From the NCBI GenBank assembly GCA_964354495.1, contig CAYHAA010000001.1, positions 188,075 through 220,074 on the forward strand: a DNA stretch of 32,000 nucleotides. Direction: 5' to 3'. Under the pieces are notes generated by a model. That model did not search any database, was not told where the DNA came from, and saw only the letters and a program-made list of their open reading frames with translations. This DNA comes from an uncultured archaeon (GTDB lineage: Archaea; Asgardarchaeota; Thorarchaeia; Thorarchaeales; Thorarchaeaceae). Positions within the stretch are counted from its first letter, which is position 1. Every line of letters begins with the position of its first letter. Position numbers and translations under genes: made by a program. Below, in pieces: positions 15,390 to 23,440 of this stretch.

Positions 15390-15444
15390 AAGCACAGATT
15401 TTTAGGTCTTGGTCGCGGAATCACCGAATGTAGGGTTGCAGCCT

Positions 15445-16104
15445 ATGATTGTCATGAATCTAAAATCAAAGGAAAAGATCCTTGAGATGCTTGAAGGGTA
15501 CAATCGAATCGTATTATTCGGTGACTCTGGATGCGCGCAGCTCTGCGACGTCGGCGGGATTCTCCAGTTGGAAGACATGGAGGACTTTCTGACCAAGAAT
15601 GGAAAGGAAGTCCTGGGCTATATCTTCGTCGAGGGCGGGATATGTGATGAGCGTGCTCTCAAGAAAGAGATAGAGGAAAAGAGGGCAATCATTGACAAAG
15701 CAGATGCATTTCTCGTTCAGGCCTGTGGCGTCGCAACACAGAATCTCACGGAAATCCTTCCAGAGAGAGAGTCCTTTCCTGCCACAGACTCGAAATTCCT
15801 TGGAACGATGCCCGAGCGATTCCAACACAAAGAACGCTGCGCCATGTGCGGTGAATGCATTCTTGACCTCACTGCAGGTATTTGCCCAATTGCTCGCTGC
15901 TCCAAGGGAATTCTGAATGGTCCCTGCGGCGGATCGATGGACGGCAGATGTGAACGCGATGCCGGCACGGAGTGTGTCTGGCAGTTGATATTTGACCGTT
16001 TGAAGAAGCTAGATAAGTTGGACAATATCTCCAGAATCTGGGAGATTCGCGATTGGAGGCCTTCCCAGAGTCCTCGAAATATCATTCACTCACCCAGTGA
16101 CTGA
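15445..16104 (+). CDS. metV: Methylenetetrahydrofolate reductase small subunit (MetV-like, Cys-rich)
   Basis: CxxCGxC...CP...C.KG..NGPCGG....C.....CVW motif, directly upstream of metF. Start placed at ATG 15445. Confidence 0.85.
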   Translation: MIVMNLKSKEKILEMLEGYNRIVLFGDSGCAQLCDVGGILQLEDMEDFLTKNGKEVLGYIFVEGGICDERALKKEIEEKRAIIDKADAFLVQACGVATQNLTEILPERESFPATDSKFLGTMPERFQHKERCAMCGECILDLTAGICPIARCSKGILNGPCGGSMDGRCERDAGTECVWQLIFDRLKKLDKLDNISRIWEIRDWRPSQSPRNIIHSPSD

Positions 16105-16181
16105 TTATGCTTGTTCTCAACAAAAGGAAATTAAGGGGCTCAGTGTTCTTCAGGCAATCCAAAGTATAGGAGAGTTCTATT

Positions 16182-17114
16182 CTGTTAAGGACAAAGCTGA
16201 TGCGCGTATTGGAATCCGATGACTTCGTCGTGACATCTGAGATTGGCCCTCCCAAAGGAGCAGACAAGACGCTTGTCCTTGAGCGAACCCGTCTGGTCAT
16301 GGATTACTGCGATGCAGTCAACATCACCGACAATATTCGCGGCATACCATCGATGAGCAGCACTACCTGTGCTCACTTTGTCTTGGAGGCTGGTGCAGAG
16401 CCCATCATGCAGATGTCCGCACGTGACAGGAATAGAATATCCATTCAGAGCGAGCTCTACAGCGCATATGCACTTGGCATCCACAACGTGTTGTTCATCA
16501 CCGGCGACCATACCCTTCTTGGTTCACATCCCGAAGCGAAGATAGTCTATGACATAGACTCAATCCAGGCGCTCAGACTGGCGAGCCATCTCATGGGTGG
16601 TACTGACTTGGCTGGTGACAAACTCGAGGGCACACCAGAGTTCTTCCTAGGGTCTACCTTCAACCCTTATGCTGATCCCTTGGAGTTGCATGTGATACGA
16701 GCAGAGAAGAAACGTAACGCAGGAGCCAAGTTCTTCCAGACTCAAGCCATCTTTGATACAGCCCGCTTAGAAACCTTCATGGACAGGGCAGCTGACCTGA
16801 AGCTGAGAGTTCTTGCTGGCATCACTCCCCTCAAGGGTCCCATCATGGCGAACTTCATGAACAAGTCTGTGCCCGGTATCAAGATTCCGGATGAGTTCAT
16901 CAAACGATTAGAGGCTGCGGGTGAGGGTCTTAAGGGTGAAAAGAAGCGTGAGGCCACGCGTGCAGAAGGGCTTTTGATAGCGACAGAAACGATCAAGGCA
17001 GTCAGACGCATAAAGGGGATACATGGCGTGCACTTGATGGGTATAGGCTGGGAAGAGAGTGTCCCAGAGATTGTGAAGAGTGCTGGTCTTTATCCAAGGC
17101 CAAAAGTGAGGTGA
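16182..17114 (+). CDS. metF: Methylenetetrahydrofolate reductase (MetF)
   Basis: VTSEIGPPKG, VNITDN, RDRNR, LFITGDH, K..AGA.FFQTQ, GVHLM. Probable CTG start at 16182 after AGGAG; first ATG is at 16200. Confidence 0.9.
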   Translation: MLRTKLMRVLESDDFVVTSEIGPPKGADKTLVLERTRLVMDYCDAVNITDNIRGIPSMSSTTCAHFVLEAGAEPIMQMSARDRNRISIQSELYSAYALGIHNVLFITGDHTLLGSHPEAKIVYDIDSIQALRLASHLMGGTDLAGDKLEGTPEFFLGSTFNPYADPLELHVIRAEKKRNAGAKFFQTQAIFDTARLETFMDRAADLKLRVLAGITPLKGPIMANFMNKSVPGIKIPDEFIKRLEAAGEGLKGEKKREATRAEGLLIATETIKAVRRIKGIHGVHLMGIGWEESVPEIVKSAGLYPRPKVR

Positions 17115-17121
17115 GAGCGAT

Positions 17122-18039
17122 TTGTTCGTCTTCAAAAAAGAACAACAAACATATGAATTCGGTGGAGTCAAGATTGGTGGCCACCCGGGTGAGAATCCGA
17201 CCGTTCTAATTGGAGGTCTCTTCTTCAAGGGCCAGCCCATTGTGAAGGACACAAAAGAGGGTACATTCGATAAGAGTCTGGCTTTGGAATGGATTGACAT
17301 AGCCACGGGAATGGTCGACAAGACAGGCCACCCTCTCATAATTCAGGCATTTGGGAGGACTCCTGCTGCAATGGAGAATCATCTTGCTTGGCTCTCGGAA
17401 AACTTCAGTGGTCCGATAATGTTTGAATCTACCACCGCCGCAGCAAGGCTAGGAGCCATCAAATACTGCCATGATGCCGGTCTCCAAGAACGCATGATCT
17501 ACAACTCTATCAATCTGTCAATGAACGATGAAGAAAAACAGGTCTTGAAAGACAGCGGGCTCAATATGGCGGTCGTTCTTGGTTGGTCACCTCGCGCGAC
17601 ATCCCTACAAGATAGGATGAAGACTGTCAGGGACATGCTTGAGACCGCAAGAAACCTGGGGATGGAAAAAGTACTCATCGACCCGGCAACTATGCCGGTC
17701 GGCGCGGGATATGGCCTTGAATTCAGGACAATGATAGCAGTAAAATCAGAACTGGGTCTTCCAACTTGCCTTGCCCCGCACAATGCCCCCTCTGCTTGGC
17801 GATTCATCAAGCAGCCCGGTCTTGATGATGAATCAACACATATGGCGACAGTAGTTGCATCCACTGTGGCAGCCCAGCTATTCGTTACGGATTCGATCAT
17901 GTATGGTTCAATGATTCGGACCAAAGAGGTATTTGCAGCAGTTGCGCTCATTTCGAATGCAATTGCAGCTGCCGTTGCGGAGGCAATCAATGTTCTAGGT
18001 ATAGAGCGACCTCTCTTCATTCCGCCAACATTTGAATAG
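17122..18039 (+). CDS. mtrH: MtrH-family pterin methyltransferase, divergent paralog 1
   Basis: MFVFKKEQ...GGVKIGG.PGENPTVL, IYNSIN, LIDP, LPT...HN; TTG start after GAGGTG. Confidence 0.85.
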   Translation: MFVFKKEQQTYEFGGVKIGGHPGENPTVLIGGLFFKGQPIVKDTKEGTFDKSLALEWIDIATGMVDKTGHPLIIQAFGRTPAAMENHLAWLSENFSGPIMFESTTAAARLGAIKYCHDAGLQERMIYNSINLSMNDEEKQVLKDSGLNMAVVLGWSPRATSLQDRMKTVRDMLETARNLGMEKVLIDPATMPVGAGYGLEFRTMIAVKSELGLPTCLAPHNAPSAWRFIKQPGLDDESTHMATVVASTVAAQLFVTDSIMYGSMIRTKEVFAAVALISNAIAAAVAEAINVLGIERPLFIPPTFE

Positions 18040-18051
18040 GAGGCTGAAGAG

Positions 18052-18738
18052 ATGAACAACGATCATGAATGGCCACCGGTCCCTGGCGACTTTAATGTCA
18101 ATGACCCCTCACATTGTGTGGCTATTTGCACGCTGGGAAAACGAATTGAGATTCCTGGAGAGTATGCAATTGCAGGCTCCTGCAAGACTGAGAATATAGG
18201 TATTGAACGCATTATCATTAATGTCATATCTAACCCTAACATTCGATATCTCATCGTTGCAGGTCCCGAGGTTCCCGGTCATTTAACAGGCAGGTCTCTA
18301 CGTGCACTATTCCTCAATGGTGTAGATCCAAATACAAGAAAGATAATCAGTGCTGAGGGGGCGATACCCTATATCGAGAATGTTCCACTCGAAGGCATTC
18401 AGCGCTTTAGGGAGCAGATTGAGCTCGTGGACATGATCAATGTGCTCAGCCTGAGTCAGATTACAGAGAAAGTGGGGCAACTTGCTGGGCAGAATCCTGG
18501 GCTCTTTTCAAAGGACGCAATATGGATCGAGTTCAAAGCTTCATCTGGAGGAGCACGGAGAGCAATTATGTCTGCCAACATCATTATCCTTCCCGAGTAT
18601 GGTCTGTTCCTAGAGAATAACAGTTCCCTAGTGGCCAGACAAGAGGCTCACGCGATTGTCACGGAACACCCCTCCTCTATTGTCATCGAAGTGAGGGAAA
18701 GCGATACTGGCACTATTCTCGTGGGCAAGGAGGCATAG
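18052..18738 (+). CDS. mtrA: Soluble MtrA/MtxA-like corrinoid protein
   Basis: WPPVPGDF, GSCKTENIGIERII.N.ISNPNIR, EVPGHLTG (cobalt-ligand His), AIPYIEN; no C-terminal TM helix. Confidence 0.88.
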   Translation: MNNDHEWPPVPGDFNVNDPSHCVAICTLGKRIEIPGEYAIAGSCKTENIGIERIIINVISNPNIRYLIVAGPEVPGHLTGRSLRALFLNGVDPNTRKIISAEGAIPYIENVPLEGIQRFREQIELVDMINVLSLSQITEKVGQLAGQNPGLFSKDAIWIEFKASSGGARRAIMSANIIILPEYGLFLENNSSLVARQEAHAIVTEHPSSIVIEVRESDTGTILVGKEA

Positions 18739-18743
18739 TATCT

Positions 18744-19679
18744 TTGTTTGTTTTCGAGAAAGAGCAAATAATCCATAACATTGGCGGAGTCAAGATTGGA
18801 GGAAATCTCGGCGAGACTCCAACTGTTCTTGCCGGAACCATCTTCTACAGCGGGCACAAGATCGTTGAGAGTGCGGAGAAAGGCATTTTTGACAAGAATC
18901 TAGCAAGAGACCTTCTGCTAAAACAGGATGAGATGTCTGAAATGACAGGCAATCCTGCACTCGTGCAGATCTTCGCAGAGTCTGAAGAGGCTGTGGTGCG
19001 CTACATTGATTTTGTCACCAAGCTGTCTGATGCCCCATTTCTTATTGACTCAACTGAACCCAGGGTTCGAATTGCTGGATTGAAACACTGCGAAGAGGTA
19101 GGTCTCTCTGATAAGGCCATCTACAACTCTATCAACGTGTCCGCAACTCCCAGTGAGATTGAAGTCTTGAAAGAGTTGCGTCACGAATCTGCTATTGTTC
19201 TAGCCTTCAATCCCCAAGACCCCTCAATCGCGGGGAGGCGAGCAGTTCTTGAGAAGCCTATCTTGGAGAGAGAAAAGGGCCTCCTAGACTTGTGTCGTGA
19301 CATAGGCGTGACAAAGCCTCTCATCGACACAGCTGTCACAGCCATGGGTGCTGGAGCAGGCTCTGCTGCGGCCTTCACCTTTGTTTCAAAAACGGTGTAT
19401 GGCCTACCAACCGGGTCTGGGGTGCACAATGCTCCTTCGTCATGGACCTGGCTGAAGAAACACAGGAAGATTGACCGTGAGGCATATTTCACAACTGATG
19501 CAGCATCGAATGTCATAGTGCAAATGATGGGTGCTGATTTCCTACTCTATGGCCCGATTGAGAATGCCAATCGTGTGTTCCCTGTTGCTGCCCTTGCAGA
19601 TATCTTTGCGGCAGAATCCGGCTACTTGGAATTTGGAATTGAGCCTGGAGATAATCATCCGTTCAAGAAACTTCTCTGA
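18744..19679 (+). CDS. mtrH: MtrH-family pterin methyltransferase, canonical-looking paralog 2
   Basis: PTVLAGTIFY, FLIDST, IYNSIN, VLAFN, LIDTA, SGVHN, GADFLLYGPIENA; TTG start after AGGAGG. Confidence 0.9.
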   Translation: MFVFEKEQIIHNIGGVKIGGNLGETPTVLAGTIFYSGHKIVESAEKGIFDKNLARDLLLKQDEMSEMTGNPALVQIFAESEEAVVRYIDFVTKLSDAPFLIDSTEPRVRIAGLKHCEEVGLSDKAIYNSINVSATPSEIEVLKELRHESAIVLAFNPQDPSIAGRRAVLEKPILEREKGLLDLCRDIGVTKPLIDTAVTAMGAGAGSAAAFTFVSKTVYGLPTGSGVHNAPSSWTWLKKHRKIDREAYFTTDAASNVIVQMMGADFLLYGPIENANRVFPVAALADIFAAESGYLEFGIEPGDNHPFKKLL

Positions 19680-19694
19680 TAGGTGATGGCAATT

Positions 19695-21086
19695 ATGCGA
19701 GGCGTCTTGAGACCAAAGGCAATCGGACTATCCTCGCTCAGGATGGGTCCATTCTATACGGTCGCCTCTGTTGAACTTGGCAATACCACAACAAAGTGCA
19801 TTCTGGTCACAACGAATCTGGAAACCGCAGAGATATTCGAAATCGAAAAGGAAGTCAGGATGACGCGTGACGTGAGACCTCCGCAGGCGGATGAACAGGT
19901 ATTTGGCGAAACTCTGTTCGGAGTGCAATTGACTCGGGAATCAGTTGCTGAATTGGTCTCGAGTGTGCTAATCGCTGCCACGTCTCGGGCAGGAATCAAT
20001 ATTGAACGTGATCTTCACTTTGTAGTTCGCTCCACAGGCATCACTGCTAGCTTCGCCAATCCATCTGATGTTGGTGTTATCGTACAAGCTCTCGCGACTG
20101 GCTGTATTCAGGCAGGAATTCCCCCTCGAAAAATGACTGCGTCGATATCAGCTAAGAACTTGCCCACGGGTCTGCGAGAACTCACGTGGCTGAAGAAAGT
20201 GTATTTTGATGGGGCTGTTGCGTCCTCACTTCCACCAGCAAATACGGAAGTCGTTGCCAATGAGATGGAAGGCGAGCTGGTGACTGCAGGTATCAAGGGC
20301 GCAGTCAAGGGCACTGCTATCGATTTCAGGAACCCTGTGATGACCTTGGACTTCGGGACCACGCTTGCTGGCCGCATCACTGACAATGGATATCCGTATG
20401 CACGGACTATCGGCTCGTTTGCCGGGTTGGCTGGTGCAATACCCGATGCAATTACTCGTGGGTCTGGTCTGGTTCAATCTGAAACAGGGTGTGTTCTTGA
20501 TTTGCCTCATAGAGGCAGAATGTCGAAGATAGATATCAATCCGGAGCTGCTCGAACAAGTAAAGCGAATCATCCGGATCGAACGGGTCCCAAGAGGCTCG
20601 TCTCGATTTGGAACAGTACCAGTCAACACAGACGCCGCAGAAGAGTCGAATATCGTTCTAATCGGCGTGGACGCTGACCTCACCGCACTGGAGCGTTTCG
20701 GCTCCAGATTCAGTGGTTCAGAGGATGGAGCGTATCTGCTCCCCCTATTCGATAATCTTCAGGCGTGGATCCTACAGCGCATCGTGAGCATTGCTGACAC
20801 CGAGGGTCTAGTTCTTGATGAGACCTCCCTGGGACTGACAGGTAGGGCAATCACGAGCGGCCAGAAACCAAAACTGATCACTAAAGGGCTTCGGCTGAAT
20901 ACCGGAGACCTCTGGACAACATCGCACCAACTCGTCTTTGTGGAGGATGGTCTTGCAATGGGAGCTGCAGTAGCTGCAAGGTGCATGAACTCCATGGGGA
21001 CGCCACACAATCCAATGGGCGGTCGCAAAGGCGACCGATGTATCATGACTGAGAGGATGAAGCTTCAAGCTAAGAGGAAATCGTAA
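19695..21086 (+). CDS. Methanogenesis marker protein 14 (DUF2114; ASKHA ATPase fold)
   Basis: VASVELGNTTTKCIL, MTRDVRPP, LDFGTTLAG, VEDGLA.GAAV.ARCMNSMGTP.NP.GG motifs. Start is one of 19683, 19686 or 19695; 19695 has the best RBS spacing. Confidence 0.85.
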   Translation: MRGVLRPKAIGLSSLRMGPFYTVASVELGNTTTKCILVTTNLETAEIFEIEKEVRMTRDVRPPQADEQVFGETLFGVQLTRESVAELVSSVLIAATSRAGINIERDLHFVVRSTGITASFANPSDVGVIVQALATGCIQAGIPPRKMTASISAKNLPTGLRELTWLKKVYFDGAVASSLPPANTEVVANEMEGELVTAGIKGAVKGTAIDFRNPVMTLDFGTTLAGRITDNGYPYARTIGSFAGLAGAIPDAITRGSGLVQSETGCVLDLPHRGRMSKIDINPELLEQVKRIIRIERVPRGSSRFGTVPVNTDAAEESNIVLIGVDADLTALERFGSRFSGSEDGAYLLPLFDNLQAWILQRIVSIADTEGLVLDETSLGLTGRAITSGQKPKLITKGLRLNTGDLWTTSHQLVFVEDGLAMGAAVAARCMNSMGTPHNPMGGRKGDRCIMTERMKLQAKRKS

Positions 21087-21174
21087 TCGTTCTGCAATCC
21101 TTGGACGGTCGTCCATGATGTTCTTTGACAGTCTTTATCTTGATATCAATGTCTGTCTTGACCGGCGATCAACA

Positions 21175-21954
21175 ATGCTTGTGTACCCTATCAAGACACG
21201 CATCATTACAGAGAAAGATAACATCCTTGATGTCTTACTTGAGAGCCTTGCTCTTGCGGACATGGAGATTCTGGACAATGACATCATCACCGTTGCTGAA
21301 ACCCCACTTGGGACAACAGAAGGACGTATCGTGAAATTGTCAGATATCAAGGTTTCAAAGGAGGCTGCAAAGCTTGCAAAGAGGTATGAGTTGCTCCCTG
21401 AGATTGCTCAGTTGATCATACAAGAGGCGGATGAAATATTGGGGGGCATTCCTCATGTCGTCCTCACAATAAAGAACAACACTTTGATGGCTAATGCCGG
21501 GATTGACAAATCGAATGCGCCGCCAGGGCATGCATCACTGCTTCCACTGGATTCTCGTGCAAGTGCGGAGCGACTACGAGCAGAAGTGAAGAAGAGGACA
21601 GGGAAGACCATTGGCGTCATGATCATTGATAGCAGAACTCAGCCACTGAGACTTGGAAATATAGGCCTGGCTCTGGGAGTTGCAGGTTTCAAACCTGTCG
21701 CTGATGATCGGGGACGCAAGGACCTCTTCGGGAATGTGTTACGAATCACGAGAAGAGCTGTGGCCGATAATCTGGCCTCTGCATGCACAGCTGTCATTGG
21801 CGAGTCCAATGAGTCCGTCCCAGCGGCATTGATACGTGACGCTCCTGCTGAGTTTGTTGACGAGTCATTTGATTCATCTGAGATGTGGATTTCTCCAACG
21901 GAGTGTATGTATATGGCTATCTTCAACCAATGGCGTCAAGGTTATACAAACTGA
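21175..21954 (+). CDS. cofE: Coenzyme F420-0:L-glutamate ligase (CofE family)
   Basis: ANAGIDKSN, IIDSRTQPLRLG...A.GVAG, DLFG..L.IT..AVAD.LA, GES.E..P. Start placed at ATG 21175. Confidence 0.85.
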   Translation: MLVYPIKTRIITEKDNILDVLLESLALADMEILDNDIITVAETPLGTTEGRIVKLSDIKVSKEAAKLAKRYELLPEIAQLIIQEADEILGGIPHVVLTIKNNTLMANAGIDKSNAPPGHASLLPLDSRASAERLRAEVKKRTGKTIGVMIIDSRTQPLRLGNIGLALGVAGFKPVADDRGRKDLFGNVLRITRRAVADNLASACTAVIGESNESVPAALIRDAPAEFVDESFDSSEMWISPTECMYMAIFNQWRQGYTN

Positions 21955-22081
21955 CAATCTTATTTAGTACCAGTCATATGAAATAGGTGCACTTCATCAC
22001 CAAGCGGATGTGTCCCTCTTCGAGAGAAGAACGGCCCCGGTAGTGTTCTATCATCACGGTGGAGTACAGACAGGAGTATCG

Positions 22082-23440
22082 ATGGATTTGGCGAAGAAAA
22101 GAGTTCTAATCGACGTCGCGAATGCAGGAGCCTCTGGGGACATGTTCCTCTCTGCATTGATTGATCTTATTGGGGAAGATGACGTTCTTTTGCCTGTCGC
22201 TGCCAGTCTTCTGATATACGACCCTTCTTTCAGACTATCTGTGACCTCTAAGTCTCACTCAGGATACACCGGTAGGCAGCTGCAAATCACTCGTAATCCT
22301 GCTATACGACTCAATCCTGACTCGCTGATGGGAGCCCTACTTTCAGTTGCAGAAGAGATTGAACTTACGCCTCGAGCAAAGAATCTTGCCAAGGAAGCTC
22401 TGACAATCATCTTTCAGGCAGAAAGCAGAGCGCATAACAAACCAATATCTGAACTGCGGCTGCATGAAACTGGGTCCATTGATACAGTGTTGGACCTTGT
22501 GGGTACTGCATATCTTCTAGAACGCGCAGGACTGCTGGAAGATGCCGAGTTCGTTGCGACACGCGTTGCGGTTGGCAGCGGCACAATTGCGACAGAGCAA
22601 GGAGACCTCGAAGTTCCCGGACCAGCAGTTGCTGAGATTCTGGTCGGGCACGACATTCTCTTCCATAACGGTGAAGCCCGGACCGAGGTACTGACTCCAA
22701 CGGGAGCTGCACTTTTGGCCGCAATCACCAAAGTCTATGTGGATGCCTACGATGGCTTTGTGGCACAGAATCAGGGAATTGGTTTTGGTACCCGTGACTT
22801 GGGCAACATCCCGAACATGATGCGCATTGTAGTTGGCGAACTTGTTGTCCAAGAGGAAAAGAAGCCAGTTTCACCTCCAAAGGAAGAATCAAAGAAAGCG
22901 GCTGCGAAGGAGGGAAAAGCACCACCGGATTCGAAATCAAAGGCTGAAGAACGTTCGGAAGTGCTTGACGAGTGGAGTGCTGATGAGGTAGTTGTCATTG
23001 AAACGAATGTCGATGATGTTGACGGTGAGACCCTTGGTAGCCTCTTTGATACGCTGCTCGTAGAAGGATTGGCCTATGATGTCATTGTCATCCCAGCGTT
23101 TGGCAAGAAGAATCGACCATGTTTCCTCGTGAAGGTCATTGCGGCAAAGACAGGTCTGAAGAGTATTGCAGAGGTCATGATGCGCCATCTAGGAACAACT
23201 GGAATTCGATACTCGACTTGGCGACGATTGAAGGCAGCACGTGAAACAATCGTCTGTAGCCTGAACATTGATGACAAAGAATACATGGTTCGTGTCAAAG
23301 TTTCTCGCACGACAGATGGAAGTATCATCAGTATCAAACCAGAAGATGATGATGTGGAGCGTGTATCTCGTGAAACCGGCATTCCTATTCGTGAACTGAA
23401 ACCGAGGATTGCAATGCAGGCTCACGCGGTCACTGAGTAA
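22082..23440 (+). CDS. larC: LarC-like nickel-pincer cofactor Ni-insertase (DUF111)
   Basis: GASGDMFL.AL, HETGSID...D.VG, VPGPA, TPTGAA, GFG, ETNVDD..GE, KKNRP, TTG.R, KPE.DD; AGGAG RBS before ATG 22082. Confidence 0.85.
   Translation: MDLAKKRVLIDVANAGASGDMFLSALIDLIGEDDVLLPVAASLLIYDPSFRLSVTSKSHSGYTGRQLQITRNPAIRLNPDSLMGALLSVAEEIELTPRAKNLAKEALTIIFQAESRAHNKPISELRLHETGSIDTVLDLVGTAYLLERAGLLEDAEFVATRVAVGSGTIATEQGDLEVPGPAVAEILVGHDILFHNGEARTEVLTPTGAALLAAITKVYVDAYDGFVAQNQGIGFGTRDLGNIPNMMRIVVGELVVQEEKKPVSPPKEESKKAAAKEGKAPPDSKSKAEERSEVLDEWSADEVVVIETNVDDVDGETLGSLFDTLLVEGLAYDVIVIPAFGKKNRPCFLVKVIAAKTGLKSIAEVMMRHLGTTGIRYSTWRRLKAARETIVCSLNIDDKEYMVRVKVSRTTDGSIISIKPEDDDVERVSRETGIPIRELKPRIAMQAHAVTE

What the first reader, a model, noticed from the sequence alone, without database searches (positions are those of the whole stretch)
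19695..21086. Methanogenesis marker 14 beside a corrinoid protein suggests a cobamide reactivase role
Seen: ASKHA phosphate loops VELGNTTTK and LDFGTT, no N-terminal ferredoxin or Fe-S Cys motif, and a start within about 15 bp of the mtrH2 stop. Established: marker 14 has no assigned function, and the diol-dehydratase reactivase large subunit is an ASKHA ATPase that exchanges damaged cobalamin. Inference: this protein may be the ATP-dependent cofactor-exchange or repair factor for MtrA. Its presence in a window lacking mcr points to Mtr rather than Mcr as its client.
Basis: partly seen in the sequence, partly recalled or inferred. Interest (0 to 1): 0.65.

Follow-up and report, generated by a model that had tools for sequence, protein, structure and literature searches.

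The report
Marker 14 ATPase tied to MtrA
This gene in a non-methanogenic Asgard (Thorarchaeia) archaeon is a genuine "methanogenesis marker 14" protein with an actin/sugar-kinase-type ATP-binding fold that follows the vitamin-B12 methyl carrier MtrA rather than the methane enzyme Mcr; that link is already published, and its proposed role as the missing factor that keeps MtrA's cobalt cofactor working is plausible but untested.

Summary
Window 19695-21086 (+) encodes a full-length DUF2114/TIGR03285 protein with both quoted ASKHA loops and no ferredoxin domain, starting 15 nt after mtrH2. One correction: four cysteines (C35, C137, C430, C449) are 86-100% conserved, so a metal or cluster site is not excluded.

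The genome (97.7% complete) has no McrA. In 301 Asgard genomes and in 201 genomes of Methanosarcina's phylum, DUF2114 tracks MtrA, not McrA. It lies beside mtrA/mtrH in several Mcr-less lineages, including a minimal mtrA-mtrH-DUF2114 operon. "Mtr, not Mcr" is therefore supported, but Borrel 2014 and Adam 2022 already published it, for Thorarchaeia too. This scan has also reported it on several other Thorarchaeota genomes.

Best reading (about 0.55): an ATP-dependent maintenance factor for MtrA's cobamide, either reductive reactivation or cofactor loading. The Mtr activator is still unknown in the literature, so the idea is testable. The gene and its Mtr link are already known.

The parts
19695..21086 (+). 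Methanogenesis marker 14 (DUF2114 / TIGR03285 / arCOG04866 / 'm26'), 463 aa, ASKHA fold
19767..19796 (+). Phosphate-1 loop SVELGNTTTK (residues 25-34)
   Evidence: S25, G29 and N30 invariant; E27, T31-33 and K34 at least 95% in 69 sequences
20259..20279 (+). Family-specific acidic motif NEMEGEL (residues 189-195) at the start of the helix that begins at residue 190
   Evidence: N189 and L195 invariant; E190, M191, E192, G193 and E194 93-99%; helix 190-206 in the model. An active-site position is inferred, not shown
20343..20372 (+). Phosphate-2 loop TLDFGTTLAG (residues 217-226)
   Evidence: G221 and G226 invariant; D219, T222 and T223 at least 95%
20826..20870 (+). Adenosine-type motif SLGLTGRAITSGQKP (residues 378-392)
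   Evidence: G380, G383, R384 and K391 invariant
19797..19799 (+). Conserved Cys35, directly after the phosphate-1 loop
   Evidence: Cys in 59 of 69 sequences, Ser in 6
20103..20105 (+). Conserved Cys137
   Evidence: Cys in 68 of 69
20982..20984 (+). Invariant Cys430, at the end of the last core helix
   Evidence: Cys in 69 of 69
21039..21041 (+). Conserved Cys449 in the C-terminal tail
   Evidence: Cys in 68 of 69; divergent members carry extra Cys in this tail
18052..18738 (+). mtrA: corrinoid protein and presumed client, without the C-terminal membrane helix of methanogen MtrA
   Evidence: Pfam MtrA E 1.3e-56; alignment with Methanobacteriales MtrA shows the hydrophobic tail replaced
17122..18039 (+). 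mtrH1: divergent MtrH paralogue
   Evidence: Pfam MtrH E 2.1e-72; below the TIGR01114 cut-off
18744..19679 (+). mtrH2: canonical MtrH; its stop lies 15 nt before marker 14
   Evidence: Pfam MtrH E 1.5e-114; TIGR01114 391 bits against cut-off 271
15409..17114 (+). metV (DUF5981) and metF (MTHFR family), upstream genes of the same-strand cluster
   Evidence: Pfam; intergenic gaps 5-95 nt across the cluster
21115..21954 (+). CofE-family gamma-glutamyl ligase, conserved just downstream of marker 14 in Thorarchaeia
   Evidence: Pfam F420_ligase E 8.2e-68; present in every Thorarchaeota locus whose contig extends downstream; the order is mtrH-cofE-marker 14 in a second Asgard family
22010..23440 (+). 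LarC-family nickel-insertion protein, last gene of the cluster
   Evidence: Pfam Ni_insertion E 3e-89; conserved downstream in Thorarchaeota loci

Best explanation
Marker 14 is a soluble ATP-binding protein of the ASKHA (actin/Hsp70/sugar-kinase) fold. It works with the MtrA-MtrH part of the methyl-tetrahydromethanopterin methyltransferase, not with methyl-CoM reductase. Most likely it uses ATP binding and hydrolysis to keep or put the cobamide of MtrA in working order. One version is support for reduction of inactive Co(II) back to Co(I), with electrons from an outside low-potential donor or through a site built from its own conserved cysteines. The other version is loading or exchange of the cofactor. 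Shown here: family membership, fold, intact nucleotide-binding motifs, co-occurrence with MtrA and gene adjacency in several Mcr-less lineages. Inferred: ATPase activity, MtrA as the direct client, and the chemistry.
For: (1) The genome has one DUF2114, one MtrA and no McrA at 97.7% completeness. (2) In 301 Asgard genomes, DUF2114 is found in 75, namely 73 of 76 family members plus the window's own genome and one genome of another family. Canonical short MtrA is found in the same family, 71 of 76. McrA is found in none of them. The only two genomes with an McrA-like match have neither DUF2114 nor MtrA. (3) In 201 genomes of Methanosarcina's phylum, 129 of 135 DUF2114-positive genomes have MtrA and 129 of 133 MtrA-positive genomes have DUF2114. 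Of the 129 genomes with both, 27 lack McrA. All three McrA-positive, MtrA-negative genomes lack DUF2114. (4) Synteny recurs in different arrangements. Every Thorarchaeota locus with enough upstream sequence reads mtrH1-mtrA-mtrH2-marker 14, with alignment gaps of 18-40 nt in 10 of the 11 loci. Methanobacteriales place it 0.25-3.5 kb after mtrH on the same strand. A 987-kb single-contig, McrA-less genome reads mtrA-mtrH-X-marker 14. MAGs labelled Undinarchaeales or Methanopyri carry a tight three-gene operon mtrA-mtrH-DUF2114. (5) The model is confident (pLDDT 93.7, pTM 0.93), has the ASKHA fold and keeps the phosphate-1, phosphate-2 and adenosine motifs. (6) By general knowledge of corrinoid methyltransferases, each known system has an ATP-dependent activator. 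A 2025 structural paper still calls the one for Mtr 'as-yet uncharacterised' (PMC12774963). (7) The purified MCR activation complex holds McrC, Mmp7, Mmp17, Mmp3, A2 and DUF2098; Mmp14 is not named anywhere in that paper (PMC12176620). (8) Other neighbours fit a cobamide or redox theme: a CobY-like nucleotidyltransferase directly downstream in Methanobacteriales and a thioredoxin directly upstream in 23 Methanosarcinales loci. (9) Published: marker 14 is absent from Methanomassiliicoccales, which have Mcr but no Mtr (PMC4153887), and 'm26 is tied to Mtr' (PMC9635834).
Against: No experiment exists. There is no recognisable electron-input domain, unlike RACo and RamA. No specific sequence or structural kinship to any known corrinoid activator or reactivase was found. 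The genome already encodes two RACo-type proteins that might serve MtrA. Other Asgard lineages carry MtrA-like or fused MtrAH proteins without DUF2114 (PMC11291895), so an MtrA-type corrinoid protein does not always need it. One Hodarchaeaceae contig has DUF2114 with no mtr gene within 8 kb. Co-occurrence across related genomes overstates independence.
Confidence: 0.55

Rival explanations
1. One reading: marker 14 is a DdrA/EutA-type reactivase. It pries a damaged cobamide out of MtrA in its ADP state and releases the apoprotein on ATP binding, so that a fresh cofactor can bind.
Against: DdrA is no closer than dozens of unrelated ASKHA families, at rank 35. hhalign against E. coli EutA and against an EutA alignment aligns only the phosphate-1 loop (E 0.08-0.1). 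No DdrB-like small subunit was seen among the conserved neighbours. By general knowledge, the usual failure of a methyl-transfer corrinoid is oxidation to Co(II), which is repaired by reduction rather than exchange.
Confidence: 0.15
2. Marker 14 is an enzyme, not a chaperone. It would be a kinase or a Kae1/TsaD-like metal-dependent transferase that modifies a small molecule or a residue needed by the MtrA-MtrH module.
Confidence: 0.15
3. Marker 14 is a non-catalytic or regulatory partner, for example an actin-fold scaffold or nucleotide-sensing switch that controls docking of MtrA on MtrH.
Against: The near-invariance of all nucleotide-binding loops and of the acidic motif in 69 sequences argues for catalysis.
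Confidence: 0.1
4. Marker 14 serves methyl-coenzyme M reductase (activation, maturation or F430 handling), as its name suggests.
For: It was first defined as a perfect marker of methanogens (PMC3226654). In Methanobacteriales and some other orders it lies in one mcr-mtr-marker 14 cluster.
Against: It is present in 75 Asgard genomes without McrA. It is present in a 987-kb single-contig genome without McrA. It was not found in all three McrA-positive, MtrA-negative genomes of my sample. It is absent from Methanomassiliicoccales (PMC4153887). It is not named in the paper on the purified MCR activation complex (PMC12176620).
Confidence: 0.03

Closest known systems
Methanogenesis marker 14 of methanogens (Pfam DUF2114, TIGR03285, arCOG04866, marker m26 of Borrel 2019/Adam 2022; M. 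maripaludis MMP1223)
   Same: It is the same family. Identity to methanogen members is 46-52% over the full length. The motifs and conserved cysteines are the same. It shows the same tie to mtr genes.
   Different: Here it sits with a membrane-free module, mtrH1-mtrA-mtrH2 with an anchorless MtrA, in an organism without Mcr. Three cysteines common in methanogen members (positions 215, 243, 325) are V, A and V in Thorarchaeia.
RACo / RamA / O-demethylase activating enzymes (COG3894): ATP-dependent reductive activators of corrinoid proteins (PDB 3zyy, 4c1n)
   Same: They have an ASKHA ATP-binding domain, are encoded next to corrinoid methyltransferase genes, and do the job that Mtr still lacks a factor for (PMC12774963). 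RACo appears at Foldseek ranks 6 and 8.
   Different: Marker 14 has no ferredoxin-type Fe-S domain and no RACo middle domain, and gives no RACo_C_ter HMM signal. TM-score is only 0.32-0.35. RACo is not in the top 50 by Z. hhalign against the genome's own RACo is insignificant.
Diol/glycerol dehydratase reactivase large subunit DdrA/GdrA (PDB 2d0o) and ethanolamine ammonia-lyase reactivase EutA
   Different: Marker 14 is no closer to them than to generic ASKHA proteins. No DDR or EutA HMM signal appears. hhalign gives E 0.08-0.1 over the phosphate-1 loop only. Their clients are adenosylcobalamin radical enzymes, not methyl-transfer corrinoid proteins.
HgdC / BcrAD / MbdQ 'archerase' ATPases (PDB 1hux, 4eht, 9gai)
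   Different: The BcrAD_BadFG HMM touches only 1 of 19 family members, at E 0.051. Marker 14 is about 200 residues longer. Its conserved cysteines lie at other positions, and whether they bind a cluster is unknown.
Kae1/TsaD/Qri7 (t6A synthesis) and related carbamoyltransferases
   Different: The profile comparison is insignificant: 34 columns, probability 6.6%. The His ligands are replaced by Glu. There is no link to tRNA modification genes.

Membership tests
DUF2114 / TIGR03285 methanogenesis marker 14 | Score above the curated HMM cut-offs over the full length | tested here: met
   PF09887 583.6 bits (cut-off 25), profile positions 1-449 of 449; TIGR03285 567.6 bits (cut-off 274), positions 1-446 of 446
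DUF2114 / TIGR03285 methanogenesis marker 14 | Family-invariant residues present | tested here: met
   All 20 invariant columns of the 69-sequence alignment are present in the window protein
DUF2114 / TIGR03285 methanogenesis marker 14 | Restricted to methanogens (the original definition of a 'marker') | tested here: not met
   The genome and 80 family relatives have no McrA. This exception is already published (PMC9635834), so the definition is outdated rather than membership being in doubt
ASKHA superfamily | Duplicated RNase-H-like core fold | tested here: met
ASKHA superfamily | Phosphate-1, phosphate-2 and adenosine motifs | tested here: met
   E27-x-G29-N30-T-T-T-K34; D219-x-G221-T-T; G380-x-x-G383-R384; all at least 95% conserved
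ASKHA superfamily | ATP binding or hydrolysis | not testable with these tools
   Needs purified protein
RACo/RamA corrinoid activators (COG3894) | N-terminal Fe-S (ferredoxin-type) domain | tested here: not met
   Only DUF2114 is detected, even at E up to 10. The genome's true RACo shows Fer2 + Raco_middle + RACo_C_ter
RACo/RamA corrinoid activators (COG3894) | RACo_C_ter ASKHA domain recognisable by sequence | tested here: not met
   No PF14574 hit; hhalign against the genome's own RACo gives E 0.11 over 15 spurious columns
RACo/RamA corrinoid activators (COG3894) | ATP-dependent Co(II)-to-Co(I) activation of a partner corrinoid protein | not testable with these tools
   Biochemical assay needed
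DdrA/GdrA reactivase (Pfam DDR) | Sequence match to the family | tested here: not met
   No DDR hit in any of 19 members at E up to 10; no PDB sequence match at E up to 10
DdrA/GdrA reactivase (Pfam DDR) | Structure closer to DdrA than to other ASKHA families | tested here: inconclusive
DdrA/GdrA reactivase (Pfam DDR) | Partner small subunit (DdrB-like) encoded alongside | tested here: not met
   The conserved neighbours are mtrH, mtrA, cofE and larC in Thorarchaeia, CobY-like in Methanobacteriales and thioredoxin in Methanosarcinales. None was recognised as DdrB-like. Small unannotated ORFs were not examined
EutA reactivase (PF06277) | Sequence or profile match | tested here: not met
   No Pfam hit; hhalign against E. 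coli EutA gives E 0.1 and against a 12-sequence EutA alignment E 0.08, both over the phosphate-1 loop only. The EutA alignment was shallow (79-90% identity), so remote kinship is not excluded
HgdC/BcrAD archerases | BcrAD_BadFG HMM match and cluster-ligating cysteines | tested here: inconclusive
Kae1/TsaD | Profile match and His-His-Asp metal site | tested here: not met
   hhalign gives 34 columns, E 0.0055, probability 6.6%. The motif positions hold Glu, not His

The most novel reading that the evidence does not exclude
Marker 14 is the long-missing ATP-dependent activator of the Mtr cobamide. It would be a third kind of corrinoid activator: an ASKHA ATPase without the ferredoxin and middle domains of RACo/RamA, using its own three or four conserved cysteines (C35, C137, C430, C449) as a metal or cluster site next to the nucleotide pocket, or taking electrons from an external donor. 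It would predate the loss of methanogenesis in Thorarchaeia and in other lineages that keep only MtrA and MtrH.
Probability: 0.35. Interest if true: 0.75.

Novelty: already known. Interest (0 to 1): 0.4.

Why it matters
Mtr is the central energy-conserving enzyme of methanogenesis. Its cobamide must be in the oxygen-sensitive Co(I) state. [quoted passage not shown] Marker 14 is one of the last universally Mtr-linked genes without a function. If it is the activator or cofactor chaperone, that closes a gap in the biochemistry of methane formation. It would also help explain why non-methanogens such as Thorarchaeia retain a soluble MtrA-MtrH module. Finally, it would offer a simple three-protein system (MtrA, MtrH, marker 14) in which to study the reaction without membranes. 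The gene's presence here and its tie to Mtr are not new.

Tried and rejected
1. Complex prediction of MtrA (18-row alignment) with marker 14 (69-row alignment), ATP and Mg scored 0.17 and 0.30 against a mark of 0.32. That is no verdict, and I do not use it for or against binding.
2. Sequence search of the PDB found no match at E up to 10.
4. The EutA lead from language-model features (scores 0.81-0.83) was tested with hhalign against E. coli EutA, a 12-sequence EutA alignment and EutJ as a control. Nothing aligned beyond the phosphate-1 loop. The EutA alignment was shallow because the homologue search returned only enterobacterial sequences.
5. hhalign against the genome's own RACo and against 23 Asgard Kae1 sequences was insignificant.
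6. A Pfam scan of 19 family members at E up to 10 revealed no second family.
7. Conserved-cysteine geometry could not be measured, because model coordinates are not exposed to me.
8. A literature search for 'Mmp14' was swamped by matrix metalloproteinase 14. Searches for DUF2114, TIGR03285, MMP1223 and arCOG04866 found only comparative-genomics mentions. A search for thioredoxin-target proteomics gave nothing usable.
9. The apparent absence of DUF2114 in one Mtr-positive methanogen (G436) is an assembly effect. The contig ends 2.7 kb after mtrA, where relatives carry the gene.
10. The few DUF2114-positive, MtrA-negative genomes could not be assessed. Three of the six hold only DUF2114 fragments, two of them at a contig end. 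Completeness is not given for these genomes. I do not treat them as real exceptions.

Full report
**What is there.**
Window 19695-21086 (+) is an open frame of 463 codons. It matches Pfam DUF2114 end to end (E 2.8e-175). It also matches NCBIfam TIGR03285, 'methanogenesis marker 14', at 567.6 bits against a cut-off of 274. An in-frame GTG (19683) and ATG (19686) lie just upstream. Relatives begin M-[QR]-x-V-L-R-P, so the ATG at 19695 is the likely start.

The gene is the seventh of nine same-strand genes separated by 5-95 nt: hflX, metV, metF, mtrH1, mtrA, mtrH2, marker 14, a CofE-family ligase and larC. Its start is 15 nt after the mtrH2 stop.

**Whose genome.**
The closest 120 homologues carry Thorarchaeota names wherever a name is given, except one labelled Promethearchaeota. 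Earlier notes of this scan say the same. The assembly is 3.3 Mb and 97.7% complete. It has one DUF2114, one MtrA and no McrA.

**Mtr or Mcr: Asgard genomes.**
- DUF2114 occurs in 75: 73 of 76 members of the window's family, the window's own genome, and one genome of another family.
- The short canonical MtrA occurs in 71 of 76 of that family, usually 1.2-1.3 kb from DUF2114 on the same strand.
- McrA occurs in none of 81 family genomes.
- Only two Asgard genomes have a divergent McrA-like match, and both lack DUF2114 and MtrA.
- Twenty-three Asgard genomes outside that family carry an MtrA-domain protein, mostly as frames of about 510 aa, without DUF2114. These correspond to the phylogenetically distinct MtrA-like and fused MtrAH forms described by Valentin-Alvarado et al. 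2024 (PMC11291895).

**Mtr or Mcr: Methanosarcina's phylum.**
I repeated the test on 201 genomes.

| DUF2114 | MtrA | McrA | Genomes |
|---|---|---|---|
| + | + | + | 102 |
| + | + | - | 27 |
| + | - | + | 2 |
| + | - | - | 4 |
| - | + | + | 4 |
| - | + | - | 0 |
| - | - | + | 3 |
| - | - | - | 59 |

DUF2114 therefore tracks MtrA (129 of 135, and 129 of 133) better than McrA. The three McrA-positive, MtrA-negative genomes all lack it. One apparent exception (G436) is explained by a contig end 2.7 kb after mtrA. These counts come from related genomes, many of them incomplete, and are not independent events.

**Synteny.**
- Every Thorarchaeota locus with enough upstream sequence reads mtrH1-mtrA-mtrH2-marker 14, with alignment gaps of 18-40 nt in 10 of the 11 loci. 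Every one whose contig extends downstream continues with cofE and larC.
- In Methanobacteriales the gene follows mtrH by 0.25-3.5 kb on the same strand. There mcr, mtr and marker 14 form one cluster, so that order cannot discriminate.
- In a clade with divergent McrA (E about 1e-42), the gene lies 3-4 kb from mtrA on the opposite strand.
- In Methanosarcinales no mtr gene lies within 10 kb.
- A 987-kb single-contig genome without McrA reads mtrA, mtrH, an unknown 345-aa gene, marker 14, a short MetE-like gene, thyA and mch.
- MAGs labelled Undinarchaeales or Methanopyri carry a tight three-gene operon mtrA-mtrH-DUF2114.
- A second Asgard family reads mtrH-cofE-marker 14.
- A Hodarchaeaceae contig has the gene divergent from two MetE-like genes, with no mtr gene within 8 kb.

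**What is already published.**
- Borrel et al. 2014 noted that marker 14 (arCOG04866) is missing from Methanomassiliicoccales, which have Mcr but no Mtr. [quoted passage not shown]
- Adam et al. 2022 list m26 = DUF2114 = arCOG04866 = MMP1223. [quoted passage not shown]
- The purified MCR activation complex contains McrC, Mmp7, Mmp17, Mmp3, A2 and DUF2098, and that paper does not mention Mmp14 (PMC12176620).

I found no paper that proposes a biochemical role. This scan has reported the same gene and the same idea on several other Thorarchaeota genomes.

**Fold.**
With a 69-sequence alignment, AlphaFold2 gives pLDDT 93.7 and pTM 0.93. The model has the ASKHA fold but has no close solved relative.
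- Foldseek TM-scores are 0.32-0.44.
- RACo is at Foldseek ranks 6 and 8 but outside the top 50 by Z.
- The ESM Atlas fold search finds only the protein's own family.
- Language-model features point to EutA clusters at 0.81-0.83, below the level that the tool treats as more than a lead.
- hhalign against EutA, EutJ, the genome's own RACo and Asgard Kae1 gives nothing significant.

The family is small, with 125 clusters at 50% identity among 1.8 billion representatives. On this evidence it forms an ASKHA family of its own. The DdrA analogy rests on the shared superfamily only.

**Residues.**
The phosphate-1, phosphate-2 and adenosine motifs are invariant or nearly so. So is a family-specific acidic motif, NEMEGEL, at the start of the helix that begins at residue 190. 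This argues for real nucleotide chemistry.

Divergent members carry extra cysteines in the C-terminal tail. I could not measure their distances. A metal or cluster site is possible but unproven.

Positions 215, 243 and 325 co-vary, Cys-Cys-Cys in most methanogens and Val-Ala-Val in Thorarchaeia. They look like core positions.

**Other context.**
- In 23 Methanosarcinales loci a thioredoxin gene lies directly upstream on the same strand.
- In Methanobacteriales a CobY-like nucleotidyltransferase lies directly downstream. It scores 174.3 bits against the TIGR00454 cut-off of 174.7, and 143.9 bits against 250 for the CobY equivalog.
- The Thorarchaeial MtrA lacks the C-terminal membrane helix of methanogen MtrA.
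- The genome also encodes two RACo-type proteins elsewhere. One has the full Fer2 + middle + ASKHA architecture. A conventional activator is therefore available in principle.

**Mechanism.**
By general knowledge of corrinoid methyltransferases, every well-studied system has an ATP-dependent factor that returns Co(II) to Co(I). The one for Mtr is still unknown (PMC12774963). Marker 14 has an intact nucleotide site and is kept with MtrA and MtrH even when all membrane subunits and Mcr are gone. That makes it the best genomic candidate.

I put about 0.55 on 'ATP-dependent maintenance of MtrA's cobamide'. Within that, reduction support is more likely than DdrA-type exchange, which I put at about 0.15 as a separate rival. 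An enzymatic role on another substrate gets about 0.15, a scaffold or regulatory role about 0.1, and an Mcr role about 0.03.

A predicted MtrA-marker 14 complex fell just under the tool's mark and gives no verdict.

**Verdict.**
The gene and its Mtr link are already known. The functional hypothesis is reasonable, unproven and directly testable with three soluble proteins.

Noticed in passing
L086:5176-12111 (G386, a 987-kb single-contig genome); L090:5954-9362 (Hodarchaeaceae contig): In two Mcr-less lineages marker 14 lies beside short MetE-like (Meth_synt_2) genes: mtrA-mtrH-X-marker 14-metE-thyA-mch in one, and marker 14 divergent from two metE-like genes in the other. From memory, short archaeal MetE has been reported to use a methylcorrinoid donor. 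The MtrH-MtrA module may therefore feed methionine synthesis in non-methanogens, like a split MetH that runs on methanopterin.
   Followed up: partly
window 18052-18738 (mtrA); alignment A4: Thorarchaeial MtrA lacks the hydrophobic C-terminal anchor of Methanobacteriales MtrA. It carries a soluble tail of about 60 residues instead, which fits a membrane-free module.
   Followed up: partly
L035:9520-9927 and 22 other Methanosarcinales loci: A thioredoxin gene (TIGR01068, 112.5 bits) sits directly upstream of marker 14 on the same strand in 23 Methanosarcinales loci. Together with the conserved cysteines, this hints at redox control or repair.
   Followed up: partly
L043:11516-12112 and 12 other loci, apparently all Methanobacteriales: A CobY-like MobA-type nucleotidyltransferase lies directly downstream of marker 14. 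It is at the TIGR00454 cut-off and below the CobY equivalog cut-off. This places marker 14 between the mtr operon and a probable cobamide nucleotide-loop gene.
   Followed up: partly
G000:C5:15801-16562 (L085) and G000:C14:14625-15365 (L084): The window's genome has two RACo_C_ter proteins. The one on contig 5 has an in-frame TAG inside the match. That could mean a pseudogene, an assembly error or a recoded stop.
   Followed up: no
window 21115-23440: A CofE-family gamma-glutamyl ligase and a LarC-family nickel-insertion protein are conserved directly downstream of marker 14 in Thorarchaeia. CofE also sits between mtrH and marker 14 in another Asgard family (L089). Their role in this cluster is unexplained.
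   Followed up: partly
Loci L119-L123 (G024, G001, G035, G006, G017), plus G028:C400:3280-4100 (no locus fetched) and L099 (G013): In several Asgard genomes the Kae1 (TsaD family) match is split into two adjacent pieces, profile positions 7-63 and 64-264. One genome shows two in-frame TAA codons. This could be a split gene, an intervening element or a recoded stop.
   Followed up: no
window 20259-20279: The invariant motif NEMEGEL resembles, by eye and from memory of the TsaD sequence, the metal-binding HMEGH(L) of bacterial TsaD, with both His replaced by Glu. The profile comparison with Kae1 was not significant.
   Followed up: partly
L086:6817-7854: A 345-aa protein with no Pfam match sits between mtrH and marker 14 in the small Mcr-less genome G386.
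   Followed up: no
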